Below the pieces are notes generated by a model, which made no database searches, was not told where the DNA came from, and was given only the letters and a program-made list of their open reading frames with translations. Below, in pieces: positions 15,270 to 62,532 of a stretch of DNA of 64,000 nt. The stretch is from Escherichia phage vB_EcoM_MM02, in the sequence record MK373784.1; one strand, 5' to 3'. Positions within the stretch are counted from its first letter, which is position 1; every line of letters starts with the position of its first letter. The translations under genes and the position numbers were made by a program.

Positions 15270-15791
15270 TCAGTAACCATTATCCTGGCGTTCAAAGTTG
15301 TGTTGGTTTTTCAAGTAGTAAAGTTTGAAGATTTCTTCAGCAGAAAGACCCAGACCTTGGAACATGTTCAGAACGAAGTGCAGAATATCAATCATTTCGA
15401 ATTTAATTTCGAGCTGGTCTTCAGGAGACAGTTCATCAATACGACGATTACGATATTCAGCATGTTGTGCTTTCCATGGCTTCCATACACTGCTGGCAGC
15501 TTTTTCACCGTTGGACATACCACCAAGTGAAGTCAGCAGTTCACGGAATTCATCATCAATATAATCTTTCTGATTACGCAGCCAATCAACAACATCGCCA
15601 GCAGTAGCCAATTCATCAGGATGTTTGTTATGTTCAGGCTTGTCATTTGCCAGACGAACCTGTAAAGATTTCTGCATATCAAGCATTACCTGCAGTGGGT
15701 CTTTATCTTCGTGAATCAGAGCATTAAAATAAGCTTCTTCTGCTTTATCAACACCAGAAATAAGTTGTGAACATTCGTTAAAGTGCGCCAT
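15270..15791 (-). CDS. 56: dCTP pyrophosphatase (MazG-like), gene 56
   Basis: Track start is a TTG 5 codons upstream; ATG at about 15791 has RBS AAAGGAAAAATAATG; about 173 aa; position between soc and 61 as in T4. Confidence 0.65.
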   Translation of the reverse strand: MAHFNECSQLISGVDKAEEAYFNALIHEDKDPLQVMLDMQKSLQVRLANDKPEHNKHPDELATAGDVVDWLRNQKDYIDDEFRELLTSLGGMSNGEKAASSVWKPWKAQHAEYRNRRIDELSPEDQLEIKFEMIDILHFVLNMFQGLGLSAEEIFKLYYLKNQHNFERQDNGY

Positions 15792-15880
15792 TATTTTTCC
15801 TTTCAATTCAGTATAAGAGAGTTTAATTCTAACATTAATTTTATAAAGCGTAATAAATAATAGGTAACTAAGGAGATATT

Positions 15881-16078: not shown

Positions 16079-17097
16079 ATCTTCGAATAACGAGATAATC
16101 TCATTTTAGCATGCAACCCACTTGAAATATTCTGTTTCATATATTCTAAAATTTCTTGTGGTGTTGCATTTTCTTTCATTACCATATCATTCACATCCTT
16201 TGATCTCCATGGAGCTCGGTCCCAGAACATGACACGTTCGCCTGCATCAACTAATCGCTTCATGCGAGCTATAGTATCCGGATGCCTAGGTTCATTATCC
16301 ATTACCCATACCCGACGTTCTTTAAATGGTACCACATCTAAATCTATTGAGCCGCCTGTAATAGCGATTGCATTGGGTATGAATAAACTATCAATAGGGC
16401 CTTCCATTACCCAGACGTCTCCTTCCTTAACACGTTCAACACCATAAATTTTTGTTGCAGACTCAAACGCTTTAATAGTGATATATTTCTGAGGAGCATC
16501 TTTACGAAGTGCACGTCCTTGGAATGACTCGGCCTTCCCATCTTTATTAAAAATAGGAATAACTAAACGTGGTTCGGGAATCTCTTTCTTATACGTACCA
16601 GGTTGAATCTTGTTGACCAATTTGGGCCATTCTAATGTGAACCATAATCTGTTCCATGATTCTTTAGGAATGCATCTAGACTTAACATATTTAACAATAG
16701 GATGCTCTTCAGGCAACTTGTCCAGACGAGAACAAGACGGCAAAGAATTTATAGTCTTTTTCTCCGGTTCTGGTTTATGTTCAGGAACCTTTTCAATCTT
16801 TGGTTCCATTCTAGCTTTTTCTTTACGAACTTCCATTAGATATTCGCGATAAAGCTCTTCATCATACTCTTTTAAGTATCCGGAAATTGTATTGTGGTAT
16901 TGACAGTTATAGCAATGTACATTACCAGGAGTACCGCCATAATACCATCCGCGAGCTTTCATTGCATCTGTCTGGGAGTCGCCACAAACTGGACATCGAA
17001 ATGTTAATTTAAATGTGCTTGAATTATTGATTTGTCTAAAACGAGGTAGGTGAGAAAACGCACGATAAGCAAATTCATTATCTATCCATTCAGCCAT
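16075..17097 (-). CDS. 61: DNA primase, gene 61
   Basis: 340 aa; zinc ribbon CPVCGD...CYNCQYH; TOPRIM-like region; size and position as T4 gp61. Confidence 0.8.
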   Translation of the reverse strand: MAEWIDNEFAYRAFSHLPRFRQINNSSTFKLTFRCPVCGDSQTDAMKARGWYYGGTPGNVHCYNCQYHNTISGYLKEYDEELYREYLMEVRKEKARMEPKIEKVPEHKPEPEKKTINSLPSCSRLDKLPEEHPIVKYVKSRCIPKESWNRLWFTLEWPKLVNKIQPGTYKKEIPEPRLVIPIFNKDGKAESFQGRALRKDAPQKYITIKAFESATKIYGVERVKEGDVWVMEGPIDSLFIPNAIAITGGSIDLDVVPFKERRVWVMDNEPRHPDTIARMKRLVDAGERVMFWDRAPWRSKDVNDMVMKENATPQEILEYMKQNISSGLHAKMRLSRYSKI

Positions 17098-30458: not shown

Positions 30459-33170
30459 TCAAAAATCAAACATATCGAACAGAGATGCTTTCTTCTCGTA
30501 ATCGAGTTTAGCTGCTGATGTGAATCCTTCAAGTGGTTTAATAAATGTCTTCTCAAGGAGAACAGTGTAGTCCATCCAATGAAGTACATCGTCTTTAATT
30601 AAATCTGTGATTTCAGTACCAGAAGGCCATGCGATACATTTATCACCGAATGGGTTTCCTTCACGTAAAGGCAGAACATATACTTTTTCACCTTCTACAA
30701 CTTGTGGTGCATCAATATTACCTTTGATAGCTCGGTTATATGTCAGAATTCCACGAATATGGAACGGACATTTAGGACCAGGGAATCCACCGACATCATA
30801 TTTAGCAATGTTATTCGCAGAAGATACCGACGCGATGCTAATATAATTCAATTGACGGAATTCTTTTTCAAACTCTTTAAAATATTCTTGTAATGATTCT
30901 TCACCTTCTTGAAGCATACGACGAATACATTCTTTAAGAGCTTTCTGTACTGCTTTAGGGGTCGAAGATTTCTGAGTCTCTAGACCCATGATTTTGAGTT
31001 TAGGCTCAGCGTAACGAGTGCCTTCCATATCCCACACGTTTAATGCATAACGTTTCTTACCAGTCCAGAATCCACCAATACCTTTAGAACCGAGCGGAGG
31101 ACCAGCGATAGCTTCTCGGTCCATGAACATTAAGTGTTGTTTATTGTTCATGTATTCACACATTTCACGGAAACCTTTATCAATAGCAGGTTCCATACGT
31201 TCACGTGCAAACTTATCTAAGAAGTCTACCCAATGGTTGGTATCACGGAATTTAGATTCACCAACCTTATCAATAATTTTATCCGCAGATACGTAAATGG
31301 AGTCTGTATCACCATAAAGAACGAAAGCTTCACCTTCTGTACCACAAACTTCATTCAGATATTCATTAACTTTACGTTCAATCCACTGTAAAGCCATTTG
31401 CCCGAATGTTGTGATTGCAGTAGCATTACGCAAATCATAATAACGGAACCAAACGTTGCCAAGTGCACCATAAAGTGAGTTGATGAGCAATTTACGGTTA
31501 ATTTGTGCAGTCATACCTGCAACTTCAGTACGTTGAGCTCTAAACAACATTTCATTAAGAGATTTAGCAGACAACTTTTTAATCTTTTCTTTAATCTCAT
31601 CGCTGAAGTCGAAACGATAATCAACATCTAATGGTTCGTCAACAGAAAGATTAGGATTATGCAATGCCTCTTTAATTATTTCACCATTACGTTGAGCTGC
31701 AAGCATGTAACCTTTATGTTCTTTACGTTGATTAAAGACCTTAGTGATTTCAGTTGGAACTACACCATCACGGTCTTTATAATACATCATGCCGTTAGGA
31801 GAACAACTGTACACATCTGAAGGACGTTCAGCGATTGCGTTAATATAATCATGTAATGGAGCTACTTTAAACGTTCCTGCTATTGTTTCTGGGCTAATAT
31901 TCACTTGGCGAATGATGCTTGGATACAGAGATGTAAGGTCGAAACTCATTACATATTTGTATCGATTTGGAATAGGTTCCTTAACAAAAGCGCCAGGATA
32001 AGGTTGAACCGGGTGAGAACGACCTTGTGGAATCACCTTGTTCTGCTCTTTAAGGCTATTAAAAATAATAGCATCCCATGTTTTAATTGGGCTAAACACA
32101 GATTGAATCTGTATCTTAGCATAATAACCCATGTCCAAACTCAAGTTGATGAACTGACGCTTAGCATCAATTTGCAATACACGATACACATCGATAATGT
32201 TATAAGAAATATATCGTTGGTGATTGCTTTCACGAAGTTTAGAAATAGGGCCGTCATATTTCAGTTTACCAACGTTCAATTCAAATTCTGAAATGTAATC
32301 CAGAGAATACGACGGTTGATTGGTAAAAGAGAATTTTTTGTAAAGGTCAATGTAATCAAGAACAGAGATACCGAACAATGTAATGATTTCACGAGAACCA
32401 TACATGTTTTCGATAACTTTAACACGAGTTTTACGATGCGGCGATAAACGTTTCGCAGTAGATTCGCCAAAAATATTCTTGATTCGGTTATACACATATG
32501 GAATATCAAATGACTCAACGTTCCATCCAGTCAAAATGACAGGAGTTTTCTGTTGCCAGAAGTTGAGATATTCCATCAACAATTCTTTTTCGTTATCGAA
32601 CGGCATATAAATGATTTTATCGATAATTTCAGATGGAACTTCATCACCGCCTTGTTCTTGAAGCTTAGCAGCGATTTCAATAGACCATTCTTCTACATTA
32701 CCATATGGAGAATTCAATAGATCAAATACGTAGAACCTGTCGTCAATTGAGTCATAATGGGTGATAGCATCAATCGGATGTTTTGCTTGTGACGGCTCAG
32801 GGAACCCGTCCGGAGATGTTACTTCGATGTCGAAGTTAGCCACACGAATTTTTGTATGGTCGTATTTGATTTCATAGTTATAAGTGTCAGACAAATACGC
32901 CAATTTGAAATCGTCCATGCCAAGTGCTTCAAGTCCGATATCTTCCATGCGTTTAATCCATTGGGAGGCATCACGCATATTAGCGAACAACTTACGAGTA
33001 CACGGCTTACCGTAGATATCGAAATATTTCGTAGCCTGACTTTCCGGACAATGAGCAAACAGTGATGGTTTATATTCTACTTCACGAGTACGTTCACGGC
33101 CATTAGAATCGATGTAACGTTCAAAAATTGAATCACCAATCTGTTCAACCGTTAAGTAAAATTCTTTCAT
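30459..33170 (-). CDS. 43: family B DNA polymerase with 3'-5' exonuclease, gene 43
   Basis: 903 aa; Exo motifs FDIEV, YNIIDVY; Pol motifs DFTSLYPSII, KILINSLYGALG, YGDTDS; sequence matches my memory of the RB69-type polymerase. Confidence 0.97.
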   Translation of the reverse strand: MKEFYLTVEQIGDSIFERYIDSNGRERTREVEYKPSLFAHCPESQATKYFDIYGKPCTRKLFANMRDASQWIKRMEDIGLEALGMDDFKLAYLSDTYNYEIKYDHTKIRVANFDIEVTSPDGFPEPSQAKHPIDAITHYDSIDDRFYVFDLLNSPYGNVEEWSIEIAAKLQEQGGDEVPSEIIDKIIYMPFDNEKELLMEYLNFWQQKTPVILTGWNVESFDIPYVYNRIKNIFGESTAKRLSPHRKTRVKVIENMYGSREIITLFGISVLDYIDLYKKFSFTNQPSYSLDYISEFELNVGKLKYDGPISKLRESNHQRYISYNIIDVYRVLQIDAKRQFINLSLDMGYYAKIQIQSVFSPIKTWDAIIFNSLKEQNKVIPQGRSHPVQPYPGAFVKEPIPNRYKYVMSFDLTSLYPSIIRQVNISPETIAGTFKVAPLHDYINAIAERPSDVYSCSPNGMMYYKDRDGVVPTEITKVFNQRKEHKGYMLAAQRNGEIIKEALHNPNLSVDEPLDVDYRFDFSDEIKEKIKKLSAKSLNEMLFRAQRTEVAGMTAQINRKLLINSLYGALGNVWFRYYDLRNATAITTFGQMALQWIERKVNEYLNEVCGTEGEAFVLYGDTDSIYVSADKIIDKVGESKFRDTNHWVDFLDKFARERMEPAIDKGFREMCEYMNNKQHLMFMDREAIAGPPLGSKGIGGFWTGKKRYALNVWDMEGTRYAEPKLKIMGLETQKSSTPKAVQKALKECIRRMLQEGEESLQEYFKEFEKEFRQLNYISIASVSSANNIAKYDVGGFPGPKCPFHIRGILTYNRAIKGNIDAPQVVEGEKVYVLPLREGNPFGDKCIAWPSGTEITDLIKDDVLHWMDYTVLLEKTFIKPLEGFTSAAKLDYEKKASLFDMFDF

Positions 33171-33251
33171 TTAATTTCCTTTAGACGAGTTATTGTCTTT
33201 TGTTTGTTGATGAACTTATTATACTCCAAATGGGACCGAAGTCCCATTGCT

Positions 33252-33620
33252 TTAATTACCAATTGTATATTTTGCTTTCAAAGTCCAGTCATCTTTCTGT
33301 TTAAAGGAGATAACACGGAAGTTATTAGTCAGGCCAAACAGATCTTCACGAGCAGAGTCTTCAATAACAATCAATCCCCAGTCTTCAAGCAACTGAGCAA
33401 TCGAATCACGTCGCTGATAGTCTTCACCATCAATATCAACCTGACGTCCGTCCATACGCAGCATTTCTTTAAAGTGGACGATGTAATATTTACCTTGCTT
33501 TTGGAGGATATGACAGGACTGATAAAGAACTTTATCCTTGTTATTAGCGATGCCCATACGGGTCAAAGTCTCTTTGACTTTCAGAAAATCTTCGGGGTTC
33601 TTCAATTTAATTTCAATCAT
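33252..33620 (-). CDS. regA: RegA translational repressor
   Basis: MIEIKLKNPEDFLKVKETLTRMGIANNKDKVLYQSCHILQK...NNFRVISFKQK matches my memory of T4 RegA; start trimmed to second ATG (122 aa); the track ATG 3 codons upstream is also possible. Confidence 0.85.
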   Translation of the reverse strand: MIEIKLKNPEDFLKVKETLTRMGIANNKDKVLYQSCHILQKQGKYYIVHFKEMLRMDGRQVDIDGEDYQRRDSIAQLLEDWGLIVIEDSAREDLFGLTNNFRVISFKQKDDWTLKAKYTIGN

Positions 33621-35225: not shown

Positions 35226-35912
35226 TTAGAAGTCGTGAGTAGAATCGGCTTCCATCGCAATAACATAACTTACTTGAGAGCTTTCAAACTTGGCTGCAAC
35301 TTTATCACCAGCTCCCCACAACATTACTTTATAGTTACCTGGCTGGATTTTCATATTAGCCATATTGATTACGAAGTTAAAGTTATTAGAACCATCATAA
35401 TCAGTAAGAGTCAAAGAATACTTAGGACGAGTTAGTCCGGAATCTTCAACTTTATTATAGCCATTGATAACAATTTTACCATCTTTATTTGTAATAGCAA
35501 TTGTATCAATCTGAAGTCCACGTGAAACTCGAAGCAATTGTTGAAGGTCTTCAGCTTTAATTTCAGTAATCACAGAAGCCACTGGGAATTGAATTGGCTT
35601 ATTAGGAAAAACAATGGTGCTCTTGTCAGCGGCAGGCCAATAAACTGTGGAACGTGTATCTGCAATTTTAATATTGCCATCAGTATGCATTGAAATTTCG
35701 GCATCATCAGACACTAGACTCAAAATGCTTAAGAAGCTATTCAAATCATAAAGTGCTACGTCAAAATCAATTTCATCAGAGATATTTGCTTCCGCATAAG
35801 TGGTGCCATTAACTGCACGAGTCATAATAAATTTACCTTGACTCAGCAGAATGCCAGAGTTAATAGAGGCAAAGTTTTTCAGAATAGCGATAGTATCTTT
35901 AGACAGTTTCAT
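35226..35912 (-). CDS. 45: sliding clamp, gene 45
   Basis: Track start is a TTG; ATG with RBS AAAGGAAATAAAATG gives 228 aa beginning MKLSKDTIAILKNFASINSGILL, as T4 gp45. Confidence 0.9.
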   Translation of the reverse strand: MKLSKDTIAILKNFASINSGILLSQGKFIMTRAVNGTTYAEANISDEIDFDVALYDLNSFLSILSLVSDDAEISMHTDGNIKIADTRSTVYWPAADKSTIVFPNKPIQFPVASVITEIKAEDLQQLLRVSRGLQIDTIAITNKDGKIVINGYNKVEDSGLTRPKYSLTLTDYDGSNNFNFVINMANMKIQPGNYKVMLWGAGDKVAAKFESSQVSYVIAMEADSTHDF

Positions 35913-35954
35913 TTTATTTCCTTTCAAGACAATTCAAAGTTTATAACAAATTTA

Positions 35955-36371
35955 TTATGCAACAACCATCTGCTTTTTAATAGCTTCAGGCAGTGATTCA
36001 ATATATTCTGGAATTTTAGAAGCAACAATTTCGCCAGCTGCAATTAGTTGTTCGTCGGCATCAACACAGTAAAAATCTTCAAGGCGTTCAGAACCGTCTT
36101 TATCAAGAACGATTTTAGCACCTGCTTCGATAGAATCTTTATAGTGCTTACGCATCAGATGAATCCACATATCAGATACATCGTTATCAATAAAACCATA
36201 AATCATAAAACGAGTTTCTTGTGGCAAAGATTGGAGTTTTTTAGCACTTGCGTCATCACAATGCAGGACCCATGCTTTACGAACACGATTATGGTTATGT
36301 GGGTTAGCGTCAGTACGGATAGAAGTAACTTTCAGATCAGCAGCAGTGAAACCTTTAGCAGTAGTAAACAT
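35955..36371 (-). CDS. hypothetical protein (rpbA/45.x position)
   Basis: 138-aa ORF between 45 and 46. Confidence 0.35.
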   Translation of the reverse strand: MFTTAKGFTAADLKVTSIRTDANPHNHNRVRKAWVLHCDDASAKKLQSLPQETRFMIYGFIDNDVSDMWIHLMRKHYKDSIEAGAKIVLDKDGSERLEDFYCVDADEQLIAAGEIVASKIPEYIESLPEAIKKQMVVA

Positions 36372-49612: not shown

Positions 49613-49876
49613 TCATTTGAAATATTCTCGCAACTCATTAAAACCGCCAATATGACTTCCGTCAGGAGCAAACACTTGAGGCATAGTCAATCCGACTTGT
49701 GATTCACGTCCAAGCTTAACCAGAAGCTCAGCAATTTTCTCATCATCAAAAACACCTTTTTCTGGCATAACGTTAATGAATTCGAATGGCTGTTTCTTAA
49801 TAGTCAGCAATCGTTTCGCATTATCACAATAAATGCATTTATGAATAGTAGAGTCATACCCGTACACTTTAAACAT
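49613..49876 (-). CDS. nrdC: glutaredoxin/thioredoxin NrdC
   Basis: Trimmed to ATG with RBS (87 aa); MFKVYGYDSTIHKCIYCDNAKRLL... with CIYC active site matches my memory of T4 NrdC. Confidence 0.85.
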   Translation of the reverse strand: MFKVYGYDSTIHKCIYCDNAKRLLTIKKQPFEFINVMPEKGVFDDEKIAELLVKLGRESQVGLTMPQVFAPDGSHIGGFNELREYFK

Positions 49877-50282
49877 TATTTTTCCTTTCATCGATTAAAT
49901 ATGCAACGCCAAATACAATACATGTAATAAAACCTGTGATACAGATAGAAACCAACAACACCGTACCAAAGAACCAAATCAAGTTATCTTTAGTAGTTTG
50001 TTTGATATCCATCTCACGAATTTCTATAGCTATAGTATCACCTTTATTCAGAAGCGTATAAAACGACGGTGATACATGCCTGTCAAAAACTCGTCCTTGC
50101 TCATCTTTATAGACGGCAATAAATTCTAATTTAGAATATTTTCCTGTAGATTGACCTGAAATTAATTCCACTACCTCCACAGGAATTACTTTAGTTTCCA
50201 TGTAAGTATTTTGGCTGTTCCAAATGAATGGAATAATAGCAAAAACTAAAGCTGCGATAAAACAACGAAGGCTATATCTCAT
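49869..50282 (-). CDS. membrane protein
   Basis: 137 aa; N- and C-terminal hydrophobic helices. Confidence 0.35.
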   Translation of the reverse strand: MRYSLRCFIAALVFAIIPFIWNSQNTYMETKVIPVEVVELISGQSTGKYSKLEFIAVYKDEQGRVFDRHVSPSFYTLLNKGDTIAIEIREMDIKQTTKDNLIWFFGTVLLVSICITGFITCIVFGVAYLIDERKNNV

Positions 50283-62481: not shown

Positions 62482-62532
62482 TTCTCCTCTAGTTGACAAG
62501 TCTATAGTAACACAACTAGAGGAGAAGTAAAC
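62482..62532 (-). promoter_or_regulatory. early promoter upstream of regB with -10 in the loop of a perfect 13-bp inverted repeat that includes the regB RBS
   Basis: Arms tctcctctagttg / caactagaggaga; -10 (rc of atagta) at about 62504-62509; -35 gtaaac at about 62527-62532. Confidence 0.5.

What the first reader, a model, noticed from the sequence alone, without database searches (positions are those of the whole stretch)
15789..15806. Three genes share an almost identical translation-initiation region (GAAAGGAAA(A/U)AUAAUG)
Seen in sequence: gene 56 (dCTPase), gene 45 (clamp) and nrdC all start with the same approximately 18-nt context UUGAAAGGAAA(A/U)AUA AUG, at about 15789-15806, 35910-35927 and 49874-49891. 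This is why the ORF track shows the same spurious MKGKIM N-terminus for each. Established knowledge: RegA (33252..33620) represses translation of a set of early mRNAs, including gene 45, by binding near the start codon. Inference: the shared context may be a common RegA operator or other shared translational control.
Basis: partly seen in the sequence, partly recalled or inferred. Interest (0 to 1): 0.4.

Follow-up and report, generated by a model that had tools for sequence, protein, structure and literature searches.

The report
Three look-alike ribosome-binding sites, RB69-type phage
Three genes of this RB69-like phage (dCTPase 56, sliding clamp 45, thioredoxin nrdC) start with nearly the same ribosome-binding site. 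It is one of several common start-site types in the genome, the repressor RegA is already known to bind it on gene 45, and it is not a special signal unique to these three genes.

Summary
The sequences are real and lie on the minus strand:
- Gene 56: UUGAAAGGAAAAAUAAUG
- Gene 45: UUGAAAGGAAAUAAAAUG
- nrdC: AUGAAAGGAAAAAUAAUG

Gene 45 differs at two spacer positions, so its false N-terminus is MKGNKM, not MKGKIM.

The window is an RB69-type phage (Mosigvirus). All three start regions are identical to those of RB69.

Each is an ordinary, unstructured translation-initiation region: an AAGGA Shine-Dalgarno, a 6-nt A/U-rich spacer and AUG.

Among 109 gene starts in the window, the trio is one of 28 equally tight triples. 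Four triples in a GAGGAGAAYAWU family are tighter.

The SD-to-AUG segment, G-A(3-5)-U-(A/U), is the kind of stretch that RB69 RegA is reported to protect on genes 44 and 45. It occurs in 26 of 109 starts. RegA control is therefore established for gene 45 and plausible but untested for 56 and nrdC. The 16-nt identity itself is not diagnostic.

Comparison with other phages adds one point. UUGAAAGGAAAWAWA-AUG recurs in the gene 56 and gene 45 leaders across many T4-like lineages. In T4 both leaders are short and follow mapped middle promoters. The nrdC copy is specific to the RB69 group and lies inside the C-terminal coding sequence of the upstream gene.

Interest is low to moderate.

The parts
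15789..15806 (-). Gene 56 (dCTPase/dUTPase) translation-initiation region, UUGAAAGGAAAAAUAAUG. SD AAGGA at 15798-15802, spacer AAAAUA, AUG at 15789-15791. The candidate RegA-type segment GAAAAAUA is at 15792-15799. The in-frame UUG at 15804-15806 is a mechanical ORF start only.
   Evidence: The start matches T4 and RB69 gp56 (MAHFNE). Unstructured: MFE -0.2 kcal/mol, z +1.76.
35910..35927 (-). Gene 45 (sliding clamp) translation-initiation region, UUGAAAGGAAAUAAAAUG. SD AAGGA at 35919-35923, AUG at 35910-35912. GAAAUA at 35915-35920 is the segment between the SD and the AUG, which the review says RB69 RegA protects.
   Evidence: Identical to RB69. Review PMC3014915. MFE -2.9 kcal/mol, z +0.74.
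49874..49891 (-). nrdC (thioredoxin/glutaredoxin) translation-initiation region, AUGAAAGGAAAAAUAAUG. SD AAGGA at 49883-49887, AUG at 49874-49876, GAAAAAUA at 49877-49884. The whole region lies inside the coding sequence of the upstream nrdC.7 homologue.
   Evidence: T4 NrdC starts MFKVYG. MFE -4.6 kcal/mol, z +1.10.
49869..50282 (-). nrdC.7 homologue (137 aa, membrane-protein-like). Its last codons, ...D E R K N N V stop, encode the nrdC SD and spacer. Its UAA (49869-49871) overlaps nrdC codons 2-3, an arrangement typical of translational coupling.
   Evidence: The C-terminal tail is 4 aa longer than, and unrelated to, that of T4 NrdC.7.
15270..15791 (-). Gene 56 coding sequence (173 aa).
   Evidence: Pfam dUTPase_2. 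72% identical to T4 gp56 and 97% to RB69 gp56.
35226..35912 (-). Gene 45 coding sequence (228 aa).
   Evidence: Pfam DNA_PPF plus gp45-slide_C. 100% identical to RB69 gp45.
49613..49876 (-). nrdC coding sequence (87 aa, counted from the SD-preceded AUG).
   Evidence: Pfam Glutaredoxin. 89% identical to T4 NrdC from residue 1.
33252..33620 (-). regA, the translational repressor (122 aa). It is the candidate trans-acting factor.
   Evidence: Pfam PF01818, full length, E 4.5e-60. 79% identical to T4 RegA and 100% to RB69 RegA.
15826..15850 (-). Putative MotA-dependent middle promoter of gene 56: MotA-box-like CGCTTTA (15844-15850), a 12-bp spacer, and the -10 element TAGAAT (15826-15831). The predicted transcript start near 15819 gives a leader of about 28 nt.
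   Evidence: The same architecture is conserved in many gene 56 loci. T4 P56 start is mapped at 16813, a 28-nt leader (PMC2988021 Table 1).
35940..35964 (-). Possible counterpart of T4 P45: a degenerate MotA box TGTTGCA (35958-35964), a 12-bp spacer, and TATAAA (35940-35945). If active, the leader would be about 20-25 nt.
   Evidence: T4 P45 start is mapped at 32626, a 23-nt leader. The box is weak in the window; close relatives have TGCTGCA.
33168..33183 (-). Gene 43 (DNA polymerase) initiation region, UAAAGGAAAUUAAAUG. It is the fourth member of the AAAGGAAA start-site class, at two mismatches from the pattern.

Best explanation
The three sites are ordinary, open translation-initiation regions of one recurrent T-even sub-class. 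Each has a 5-nt Shine-Dalgarno AAGGA, which pairs with the UCCUU near the 3' end of 16S rRNA. A 6-nt spacer made only of A and U follows, then AUG, all within an unstructured purine-rich leader. They look alike because they use the same ribosome-binding solution, not because they carry a private signal.

The SD lacks GGAG, so these mRNAs are not expected to be cut by the phage nuclease RegB.

The stretch from the last SD G to just before the AUG reads GAAAUA in gene 45 and GAAAAAUA in genes 56 and nrdC. This is the type of sequence that RegA occupies to compete with the 30S subunit.
- For gene 45 this is published for RB69, whose site is identical.
- For genes 56 and nrdC it is an inference. 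They are likely members of the broad, consensus-poor RegA regulon.

The three contexts differ.
- Gene 56 sits about 28 nt downstream of a MotA-type middle promoter.
- Gene 45 sits downstream of a degenerate, uncertain counterpart of the T4 P45 promoter.
- nrdC is initiated from inside the preceding gene, probably with translational coupling.

Shown: the sequences, their spacing, the lack of structure, their frequency in the genome, their conservation pattern, and the presence of RegA. Inferred: RegA repression of 56 and nrdC, RegB resistance, promoter activity and coupling.
For: - Sequence and spacing.
- True starts fixed by homology to T4 and RB69 N-termini.
- Start-site census of 109 genes: GAGG 34, GGAG 19, AAGGA 12 (including 43, 45, 56 and nrdC), weak 39, none 5.
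- The trio is one of 28 comparably tight triples. Start sites as a whole cluster into families: 19 pairs at 13 of 16 or better, against 1.1 expected from column shuffles.
- All three leaders fold less well than shuffles. There is no Rfam family anywhere in the window.
- RegA is present and identical to RB69's.
- The review says RB69 RegA protects the region between the SD and the AUG on genes 44 and 45. It also says the sites are A+U-rich, unstructured and without a clear consensus, and number about 30 mRNAs.
- G-A(3-5)-U-(A/U) is present in 26 of 109 starts. These include the homologues of the classical T4 targets rIIA, dexA, 44, 45, 62 and rpbA.
- Genes 56 and nrdC score 8 of 9 against the RB69 SELEX UAA repeat, in the top 6 of 109.
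- T4 middle-promoter start sites P56, P45 and PnrdC are mapped.
- A MotA box plus -10 element is conserved upstream of gene 56 in many lineages.
Against: - No binding or expression data for the 56 or nrdC leaders were available.
- The SELEX-type score does not separate the proven targets 44 and 45 (6 of 9, rank 75 of 109) from non-targets, so it predicts poorly.
- The element shared with RegA sites overlaps what any good SD plus A/U spacer would contain. Ribosome-driven and RegA-driven selection therefore cannot be separated from sequence alone.
- The upstream UUGA, shared by 56 and 45 and conserved across lineages, is not explained by SD pairing.
Confidence: 0.7

Rival explanations
1. The extended 15-16-nt block UUGAAAGGAAAWAWA-AUG is a discrete, specific operator or enhancer, recognised by RegA or another factor. 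It would define a co-regulated subset (45, 56 and, in the RB69 group, nrdC), distinct from the bulk of start sites.
For: - The block recurs in both the gene 56 and gene 45 leaders in many T4-like lineages whose gp56 is only 65-85% identical. Sequence just upstream of it diverges.
- In 10 of 26 distinct genomes the two leaders share 12 of 16 or more. In one they share an identical 16-mer.
- Mean 56/45 identity is about 9 of 16, against a mode of 5 of 16 for random start-site pairs in the window.
- A -6 and A -3 are invariant in 44 distinct gene 56 leaders.
Against: - nrdC has the block only in the RB69 group.
- Many lineages have clearly different 45 leaders (GGUAAUUAA, GGAAACAUU) while the 56 leader is kept.
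- 56/45 similarity within a genome is not significantly higher than between genomes: 9.3 against 8.7, permutation p = 0.057. There is thus no sign of co-evolution with a lineage-specific factor.
- The review states that RegA sites have no clear consensus.
- The 5-mers of UGAAUUGA are not significantly enriched upstream of the SDs of the window's 109 starts.
Confidence: 0.17
2. The resemblance has no regulatory meaning. The three sites are independent arrivals at a good SD plus A-rich spacer, and RegA acts on gene 45 only.
For: - There are 28 equally tight triples and several other start-site families in the same 64 kb.
- The T4 counterparts are less alike: 56 UUGAAAGGAAAACUAAUG, 45 UUGAAGGAAAUUACAUG, nrdC AUUAAGGAAUAAUAUG.
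- The nrdC site varies freely among lineages.
Against: - Genes 56 and nrdC have the same SD-to-AUG element as the footprinted gene 45 site, and they score highest against the RB69 SELEX motif.
- RegA represses about 30 mRNAs, mostly DNA-metabolism genes of this class.
- From memory, not verified here: early regA (SP62) work reported overproduction of dCTPase.
Confidence: 0.25
3. The 17-nt identity between genes 56 and nrdC (UGAAAGGAAAAAUAAUG) reflects a recent sequence transfer or patch recombination between start regions in the RB69 lineage, not selection.
For: - The nrdC junction is rearranged relative to T4. nrdC.7 precedes nrdC instead of nrdC.1, and NrdC.7 has a new 4-aa-longer tail that encodes the site.
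- The identity stops abruptly at both ends.
Against: - The identical block is only 17 nt long, with no flanking homology.
- Four unrelated gene pairs reach the same 14 of 16.
- No intermediate forms were seen in the 19 nrdC loci.
Confidence: 0.08
4. For gene 56, conservation of the purine-rich leader serves DNA replication. In T4 the P56 middle transcript is annotated as the primer RNA of origin oriA, so the leader could be selected for R-loop formation rather than for translation control.
For: - The T4 record annotates oriA at 16763, inside gene 56, with 'primer RNA same as transcript for genes 56...'.
- The gene 56 promoter and leader are conserved across lineages.
Against: - The same motif occurs at gene 45 and nrdC, where no origin is annotated.
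- The conserved positions are exactly the SD and spacer.
- No origin data exist for RB69-type phages in what I could read.
Confidence: 0.05

Closest known systems
RegA translational operators of phages T4 and RB69 (genes 44, 45, rIIB, dexA, regA and others)
   Same: - Single-stranded, A/U-rich, unstructured sites at or just 5' of the AUG.
- The gene 45 site here is base-for-base the RB69 gene 45 site, which RB69 RegA protects between the SD and the AUG.
- Genes 56 and nrdC carry the same kind of G-A(n)-U-A stretch at the same position.
   Different: - No binding or repression data exist for the 56 and nrdC leaders.
- RegA operators have no agreed consensus, so sequence alone cannot establish membership.
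- The element is present in about a quarter of all starts in the window.
Canonical Shine-Dalgarno translation-initiation regions of T-even phages
   Same: - SD complementary to the 16S 3' end, with the two SD guanines at -9 and -8. This is the modal G position in this genome's own start-site profile.
- An A/U-rich spacer, with A at -3.
- No secondary structure.
   Different: The sites use the less common AAGGA form (12 of 109) rather than GAGG (34) or GGAG (19). Genes 56 and 45 share an extra UUGA 5' of the SD that SD pairing does not explain.
RegB endonuclease targets (GGAG Shine-Dalgarno sequences of early mRNAs, consensus GGAGRAYARAA)
   Same: Also a family of near-identical start sites with a purine-rich, A-rich 3' flank. 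This window has such a family (CAAGAGGAGAAYAWU).
   Different: The three sites have GGAA, not GGAG. The defining tetranucleotide is absent.
Gene 43 autogenous translational operator (DNA polymerase binds a hairpin plus its own SD)
   Same: The gene 43 start site here, UAAAGGAAAUUAAAUG, belongs to the same AAAGGAAA class.
   Different: Gene 43 has a hairpin immediately 5' of the SD. Genes 56, 45 and nrdC have no such structure.
Translationally coupled overlapping genes (stop codon of the upstream gene at the downstream AUG)
   Same: The nrdC start region lies inside nrdC.7, and the nrdC.7 UAA overlaps nrdC codons 2-3.
   Different: This applies to nrdC only. Genes 56 and 45 are preceded by intergenic DNA with promoter-like elements.

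Membership tests
Shine-Dalgarno-led translation-initiation region | Purine-rich SD complementary to the 16S rRNA 3' end, 5-9 nt upstream of the start codon. | tested here: met
   AAGGA lies 6 nt upstream of the AUG in all three sites. The SD guanines at -9 and -8 fall on the genome-wide profile's G-rich positions (-10 to -7, peak at -9).
Shine-Dalgarno-led translation-initiation region | The start codon is the true N-terminus of the protein. | tested here: met
   T4 gp56, gp45 and NrdC align from residue 1 to the SD-preceded AUGs. The upstream UUG or AUG has no SD, and in gene 45 it is not conserved in frame in T4. No protein-level data were available.
Shine-Dalgarno-led translation-initiation region | The site is accessible, that is, not sequestered in secondary structure. 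| tested here: met
   MFE -0.2, -2.9 and -4.6 kcal/mol over 60 nt, with z +1.76, +0.74 and +1.10 against shuffles.
RegA translational operator | A regA gene is present in the same genome. | tested here: met
   PF01818, full length, E 4.5e-60. 100% identical to RB69 RegA.
RegA translational operator | A/U-rich, unstructured site overlapping or immediately 5' of the initiator AUG. | tested here: met
   The criteria are taken from review PMC3014915.
RegA translational operator | Demonstrated RegA binding or protection of this exact RNA. | tested here: met
   Gene 45 only. The site is identical to RB69 gene 45, which the review reports as protected by RB69 RegA between the SD and the AUG. This rests on the literature, not on a test run here.
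RegA translational operator | Demonstrated RegA binding or repression for the gene 56 and nrdC leaders. | not testable with these tools
   No data were found in the papers I could read. The primary papers (Sengupta 2001, Jozwik and Miller 1992, Dean 2005) are not held.
RegA translational operator | A sequence signature that separates targets from non-targets. | tested here: inconclusive
   - G-A(3-5)-U-(A/U) occurs in 26 of 109 starts.
- On the SELEX UAA-repeat score, 56 and nrdC are in the top 6, but the proven targets 44 and 45 rank 75 of 109.
- The review says no clear consensus exists.
RegB cleavage site | GGAG (or GGAU) in the SD region. | tested here: not met
   All three read AAGGAAA. 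GGAG-type SDs occur at 19 other starts.
MotA-dependent middle promoter immediately upstream (short-leader middle transcript) | MotA box (a/t)(a/t)(a/t)TGCTTtA positioned 12 +/- 1 bp upstream of a TAtaaT -10 element. | tested here: inconclusive
   - Gene 56: met, with CGCTTTA-12-TAGAAT, conserved in relatives.
- Gene 45: only a degenerate TGTTGCA-12-TATAAA.
- nrdC: none within 150 nt, although T4 has mapped PnrdC promoters.
- Promoter activity was not tested.
Translational coupling | The upstream ORF terminates within a few nucleotides of the downstream start codon. | tested here: met
   nrdC only. The nrdC.7 UAA at 49869-49871 lies 3 nt 3' of the nrdC AUG at 49874-49876. Functional coupling was not tested.

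The most novel reading that the evidence does not exclude
UUGAAAGGAAAWAWA-AUG may be a discrete leader module that has been kept for a long time at the 5' ends of the short middle-mode mRNAs for genes 45 and 56 across Tevenvirinae. In the RB69 lineage it would have been recruited a third time, for nrdC, written into the C-terminal codons of the upstream gene. The module would be read by a specific factor, either high-affinity RegA binding or something else that recognises the UUGA-plus-SD context. That factor would set a common translational timing for the clamp, the dCTPase and the thioredoxin.
Probability: 0.15. Interest if true: 0.45.

Novelty: new member of a known kind. Interest (0 to 1): 0.22.

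Why it matters
RegA is a classic translational repressor, and its regulon has never been reducible to a consensus. If the gene 56 and nrdC leaders of RB69-type phages bind RegA, they would add two natural sites that are almost identical to each other and close to the footprinted gene 45 site. That would give a clean natural series for defining which bases RegA reads.

In practice the result mostly corrects expectations:
- The look-alike starts are one of several start-site families in this genome.
- The MKGKIM extensions are artefacts. RB69's database entry for nrdC appears to include one.
- Sequence similarity alone cannot assign a gene to the RegA regulon.

Tried and rejected
- **Rfam scan.** The whole window gave no hits at gathering thresholds, so no known structured RNA element is involved.
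- **Generic sigma-70 promoter and terminator scan.** Around genes 56 and 45 it found nothing above the shuffle expectation. T4 middle promoters lack a -35 element, so I used a MotA-box plus -10 scan instead.
- **SELEX-motif scoring as a RegA predictor.** Rejected, because it ranks the proven targets 44 and 45 at 75 of 109.
- **Concerted evolution of the 56 and 45 leaders within genomes.** Within-genome identity is 9.3 and between-genome 8.7 of 16, p = 0.057. Not supported.
- **k-mer enrichment upstream of the SDs.** UGAAUUGA is not a general motif. The enriched words belong instead to a family of early promoters and leaders.
- **Distant gp45 homologues.** Homologues at 30-40% identity, from environmental T4-likes, have unrelated start sites, mostly GGAG-type, and were uninformative.
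- **First gp45 locus search.** It returned only 2 loci. A degenerate DNA pattern was needed to recover 58.
- **Primary RegA papers.** Sengupta 2001, Jozwik and Miller 1992, Phillips 1996 and the 2003 T4 genome review are not held. Footprint coordinates I remember (-8..-3 GAAAUA on RB69 gene 45; -9..-3 GAAAAUU on gene 44) are memory only, though consistent with the review. Literature searches for RegA sensitivity of 56 and nrdC found nothing usable.
- **Upstream UUG or AUG as real starts.** Rejected. They have no SD, the T4 homologues start at the downstream AUG, and the in-frame relation is lost in T4 gene 45.

Full report
**What is there**

Reading the three coordinates shows that the genes are on the minus strand.
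- Gene 56 (15806..15789): UUGAAAGGAAAAAUAAUG
- Gene 45 (35927..35910): UUGAAAGGAAAUAAAAUG
- nrdC (49891..49874): AUGAAAGGAAAAAUAAUG

Genes 56 and nrdC share a 17-nt identical run. Gene 45 differs from them at two spacer positions.

The mechanical ORF lists begin five codons upstream of the real start: at UUG 15806, UUG 35927 and AUG 49891.

The degenerate 16-mer has 3 exact matches, against 0 in shuffles. With two mismatches allowed, the only extra hit is the gene 43 start, UAAAGGAAAUUAAAUG. The core AAAGGAAA is not itself over-represented: 7 observed against 6.3 expected. All 7 are on the coding strand and 4 are at gene starts.

**What genome this is**

The window is about 98% identical to a group of Escherichia and Shigella phages. 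Its proteins are 50-90% identical to T4 proteins and mostly 94-100% identical to RB69 proteins. It is therefore an RB69-type phage (Mosigvirus).

The start regions of genes 56, 45, nrdC, 43, 44, 62 and regA are base-for-base those of RB69. Pfam confirms the dCTPase/dUTPase family, the sliding clamp, a glutaredoxin-fold protein and a full-length RegA. RB69 literature therefore applies directly.

**Is the resemblance exceptional?**

I mapped 109 gene starts from the RB69 annotation, corrected with T4 homology where the two disagreed.

Over positions -16..-1:
- 56/nrdC share 14 of 16. That is tied for top with three unrelated pairs among 5886.
- 56/45 share 13 of 16. Fifteen pairs score exactly 13 and nineteen score 13 or more.
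- 45/nrdC share 12 of 16.

The trio is one of 28 triples in which every pair reaches 12 of 16. Four triples in a CAAGAGGAGAAYAWU family are tighter.

Start sites in this genome fall into a few families far more than independent columns predict: 19 pairs at 13 or more, against 1.1 expected. The trio is a real cluster, but one of several.

By SD type the 109 starts divide as follows:

| SD type | Starts |
|---|---|
| GAGG | 34 |
| GGAG | 19 |
| AAGGA | 12 |
| weak | 39 |
| none | 5 |

The AAGGA class includes 43, 45, 56 and nrdC.

**Anatomy and likely mechanism**

Each site has AAGGA six nucleotides upstream of the AUG, with the two SD guanines at -9 and -8. That matches the G-rich positions of the genome-wide profile, which peaks at -9. 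The spacer contains only A and U.

All three 60-nt leaders fold worse than their shuffles: MFE -0.2, -2.9 and -4.6 kcal/mol, with z +1.8, +0.7 and +1.1. These are open, standard initiation regions. Rfam finds nothing. None contains GGAG, the tetranucleotide required by the phage nuclease RegB, so I infer that they escape RegB.

**RegA**

The review by Uzan and Miller (PMC3014915) makes these points:
- RegA competes with the ribosome at about 30 mRNAs.
- The sites are A+U-rich, unstructured and without clear consensus.
- RB69 RegA protects the region between the SD and the AUG of genes 44 and 45, but not the AUG itself.
- RB69 SELEX gives AAUAAUAAUAAnA.

In the window that region reads GAAAAUU for gene 44, GAAAUA for gene 45, and GAAAAAUA for genes 56 and nrdC.

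The same G-A(3-5)-U-(A/U) element sits between the SD and the AUG in 26 of 109 starts. These include the homologues of the classical T4 targets rIIA, dexA, 44, 45, 62 and rpbA, and also 43, 47 and uvsX.

A SELEX-like score puts 56 and nrdC in the top six but ranks the proven targets 44 and 45 at 75 of 109. Sequence therefore cannot decide membership. The 16-nt identity goes beyond anything RegA is known to need.

**Context differs among the three**

- *Gene 56.* It is preceded by CGCTTTA-12 bp-TAGAAT, a MotA-box plus -10 arrangement, which predicts a 28-nt leader. The MotA-box consensus and the 12 +/- 1 bp spacing come from PMC2988021. The same review maps T4 P56 at 16813, which is also a 28-nt leader. 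The promoter architecture is conserved upstream of gene 56 in many lineages.
- *Gene 45.* T4 P45 is mapped at 32626, giving a 23-nt leader. The window keeps TATAAA but has only a degenerate box, TGTTGCA.
- *nrdC.* I found no MotA-type promoter within 150 nt. The whole start region lies inside the nrdC.7 homologue. The last codons of nrdC.7 (D E R K N N V stop) spell the SD and spacer, and its UAA overlaps nrdC codons 2-3. That arrangement suggests translational coupling. The NrdC.7 tail is four residues longer than, and unrelated to, the T4 tail.

**Comparison with relatives**

In T4 the three sites are less alike:
- Gene 56: UUGAAAGGAAAACUAAUG
- Gene 45: UUGAAGGAAAUUACAUG
- nrdC: AUUAAGGAAUAAUAUG

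Across 44 distinct gene 56 loci (gp56 55-100% identical), the leader stays in the family (U)GAAUUGAAAGGAAA(A/U)A(U/A)A-AUG. A at -6 and A at -3 are invariant. Mean pairwise identity is 0.55 for -18..-1, against 0.36-0.38 further upstream and 0.44 at third codon positions.

Gene 45 leaders recovered from the same contigs belong to the same family in many lineages. In 10 of 26 distinct genomes the 56 and 45 sites share 12 of 16 or more, and in one they share an identical 16-mer. Some lineages carry, at gene 56, exactly the window's gene 45 sequence.

Within-genome similarity is not significantly above between-genome similarity (9.3 against 8.7 of 16, p = 0.057). So I see a shared, long-lived start-site type rather than co-evolution or gene conversion.

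nrdC is different. Its start site varies freely and has the GAAAGGAAAAAUA form only in RB69-group contigs.

**Verdict**

- RegA at gene 45 is known.
- RegA at 56 and nrdC is a fair prediction.
- The near-identity is best explained by use of one common ribosome-binding solution. For 45 and 56 it is retained over long evolutionary distances. For nrdC it arose within the RB69 lineage.

One residue remains unexplained: the UUGA immediately 5' of the SD, shared by the 56 and 45 leaders in many lineages. Neither SD pairing nor the reported RegA footprint accounts for it. That is the basis of the more novel reading, to which I give about 15%.

Noticed in passing
window 49874-49891; RB69 record NC_004928 49029-49307 (L004/L005): The RB69 database entry starts nrdC at the upstream AUG, giving MKGKIM... 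(92 aa). That AUG has no Shine-Dalgarno. T4 NrdC (87 aa) and all other homologues start at the downstream AUG, so the RB69 annotation is probably five codons too long. RB69 regA is likewise annotated three codons upstream (MVKMIE...) of the T4-homologous start at window 33620.
   Followed up: partly
window 33184-33200 (minus strand), just 5' of the gene 43 start site at 33168-33183: A small hairpin (GACA...UGUC-type stem, AGACAAUAACUCGUCU) sits immediately upstream of the gene 43 Shine-Dalgarno. T4 has CAAGAGCCUAAUAACUCGGGCU at the same place, downstream of the mapped P43 start. This is where the DNA polymerase's own translational operator is expected.
   Followed up: partly
window minus strand near 62506, 54230, 20319 and 6819: Near-identical blocks of 25-30 nt, GTTAYTATAGACCTATCAAC(TAC), precede GGAG or GAGGAG Shine-Dalgarno sequences at several genes, including regB. 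The words ATAGA, GACCT and ATCAA are the most enriched 5-mers upstream of starts. This looks like a family of early promoters and leaders with RegB-type sites, and it is tighter than the trio under study.
   Followed up: partly
window 35958-35964: The MotA-box-like element upstream of gene 45 reads TGTTGCA in the window but TGCTGCA in closely related contigs (L159, L171). This single-base difference falls in the conserved CTT core of the box and could weaken a gene 45 middle promoter in this phage.
   Followed up: no
window 15804-15811 and 35925-35937; loci L006-L053 and L157-L230: The sequence just 5' of the Shine-Dalgarno, UGA(A/U)UUGA, is shared by the gene 56 and gene 45 leaders in many T4-like lineages. 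Its distance from the -10 element varies from 3 to 15 nt. It is not enriched at other genes, and I have no explanation for it.
   Followed up: partly
window 49869-49900 (C-terminus of the nrdC.7 homologue): The NrdC.7 homologue ends ...AYLIDERKNNV, four residues longer than T4 NrdC.7 (...RVIGKIE) and unrelated to it. These extra codons are exactly the nrdC Shine-Dalgarno and spacer, so the protein tail seems to be dictated by the downstream gene's start site. Gene order also differs from T4, where nrdC.1 precedes nrdC.
   Followed up: partly
whole window, 109 mapped gene starts: Start sites cluster into a handful of near-identical families far more than position-independent composition predicts: 19 pairs at 13 of 16 or better, against 1.1 in column shuffles. 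Part of this is the shifting register of the Shine-Dalgarno, which the shuffle does not preserve.
   Followed up: partly
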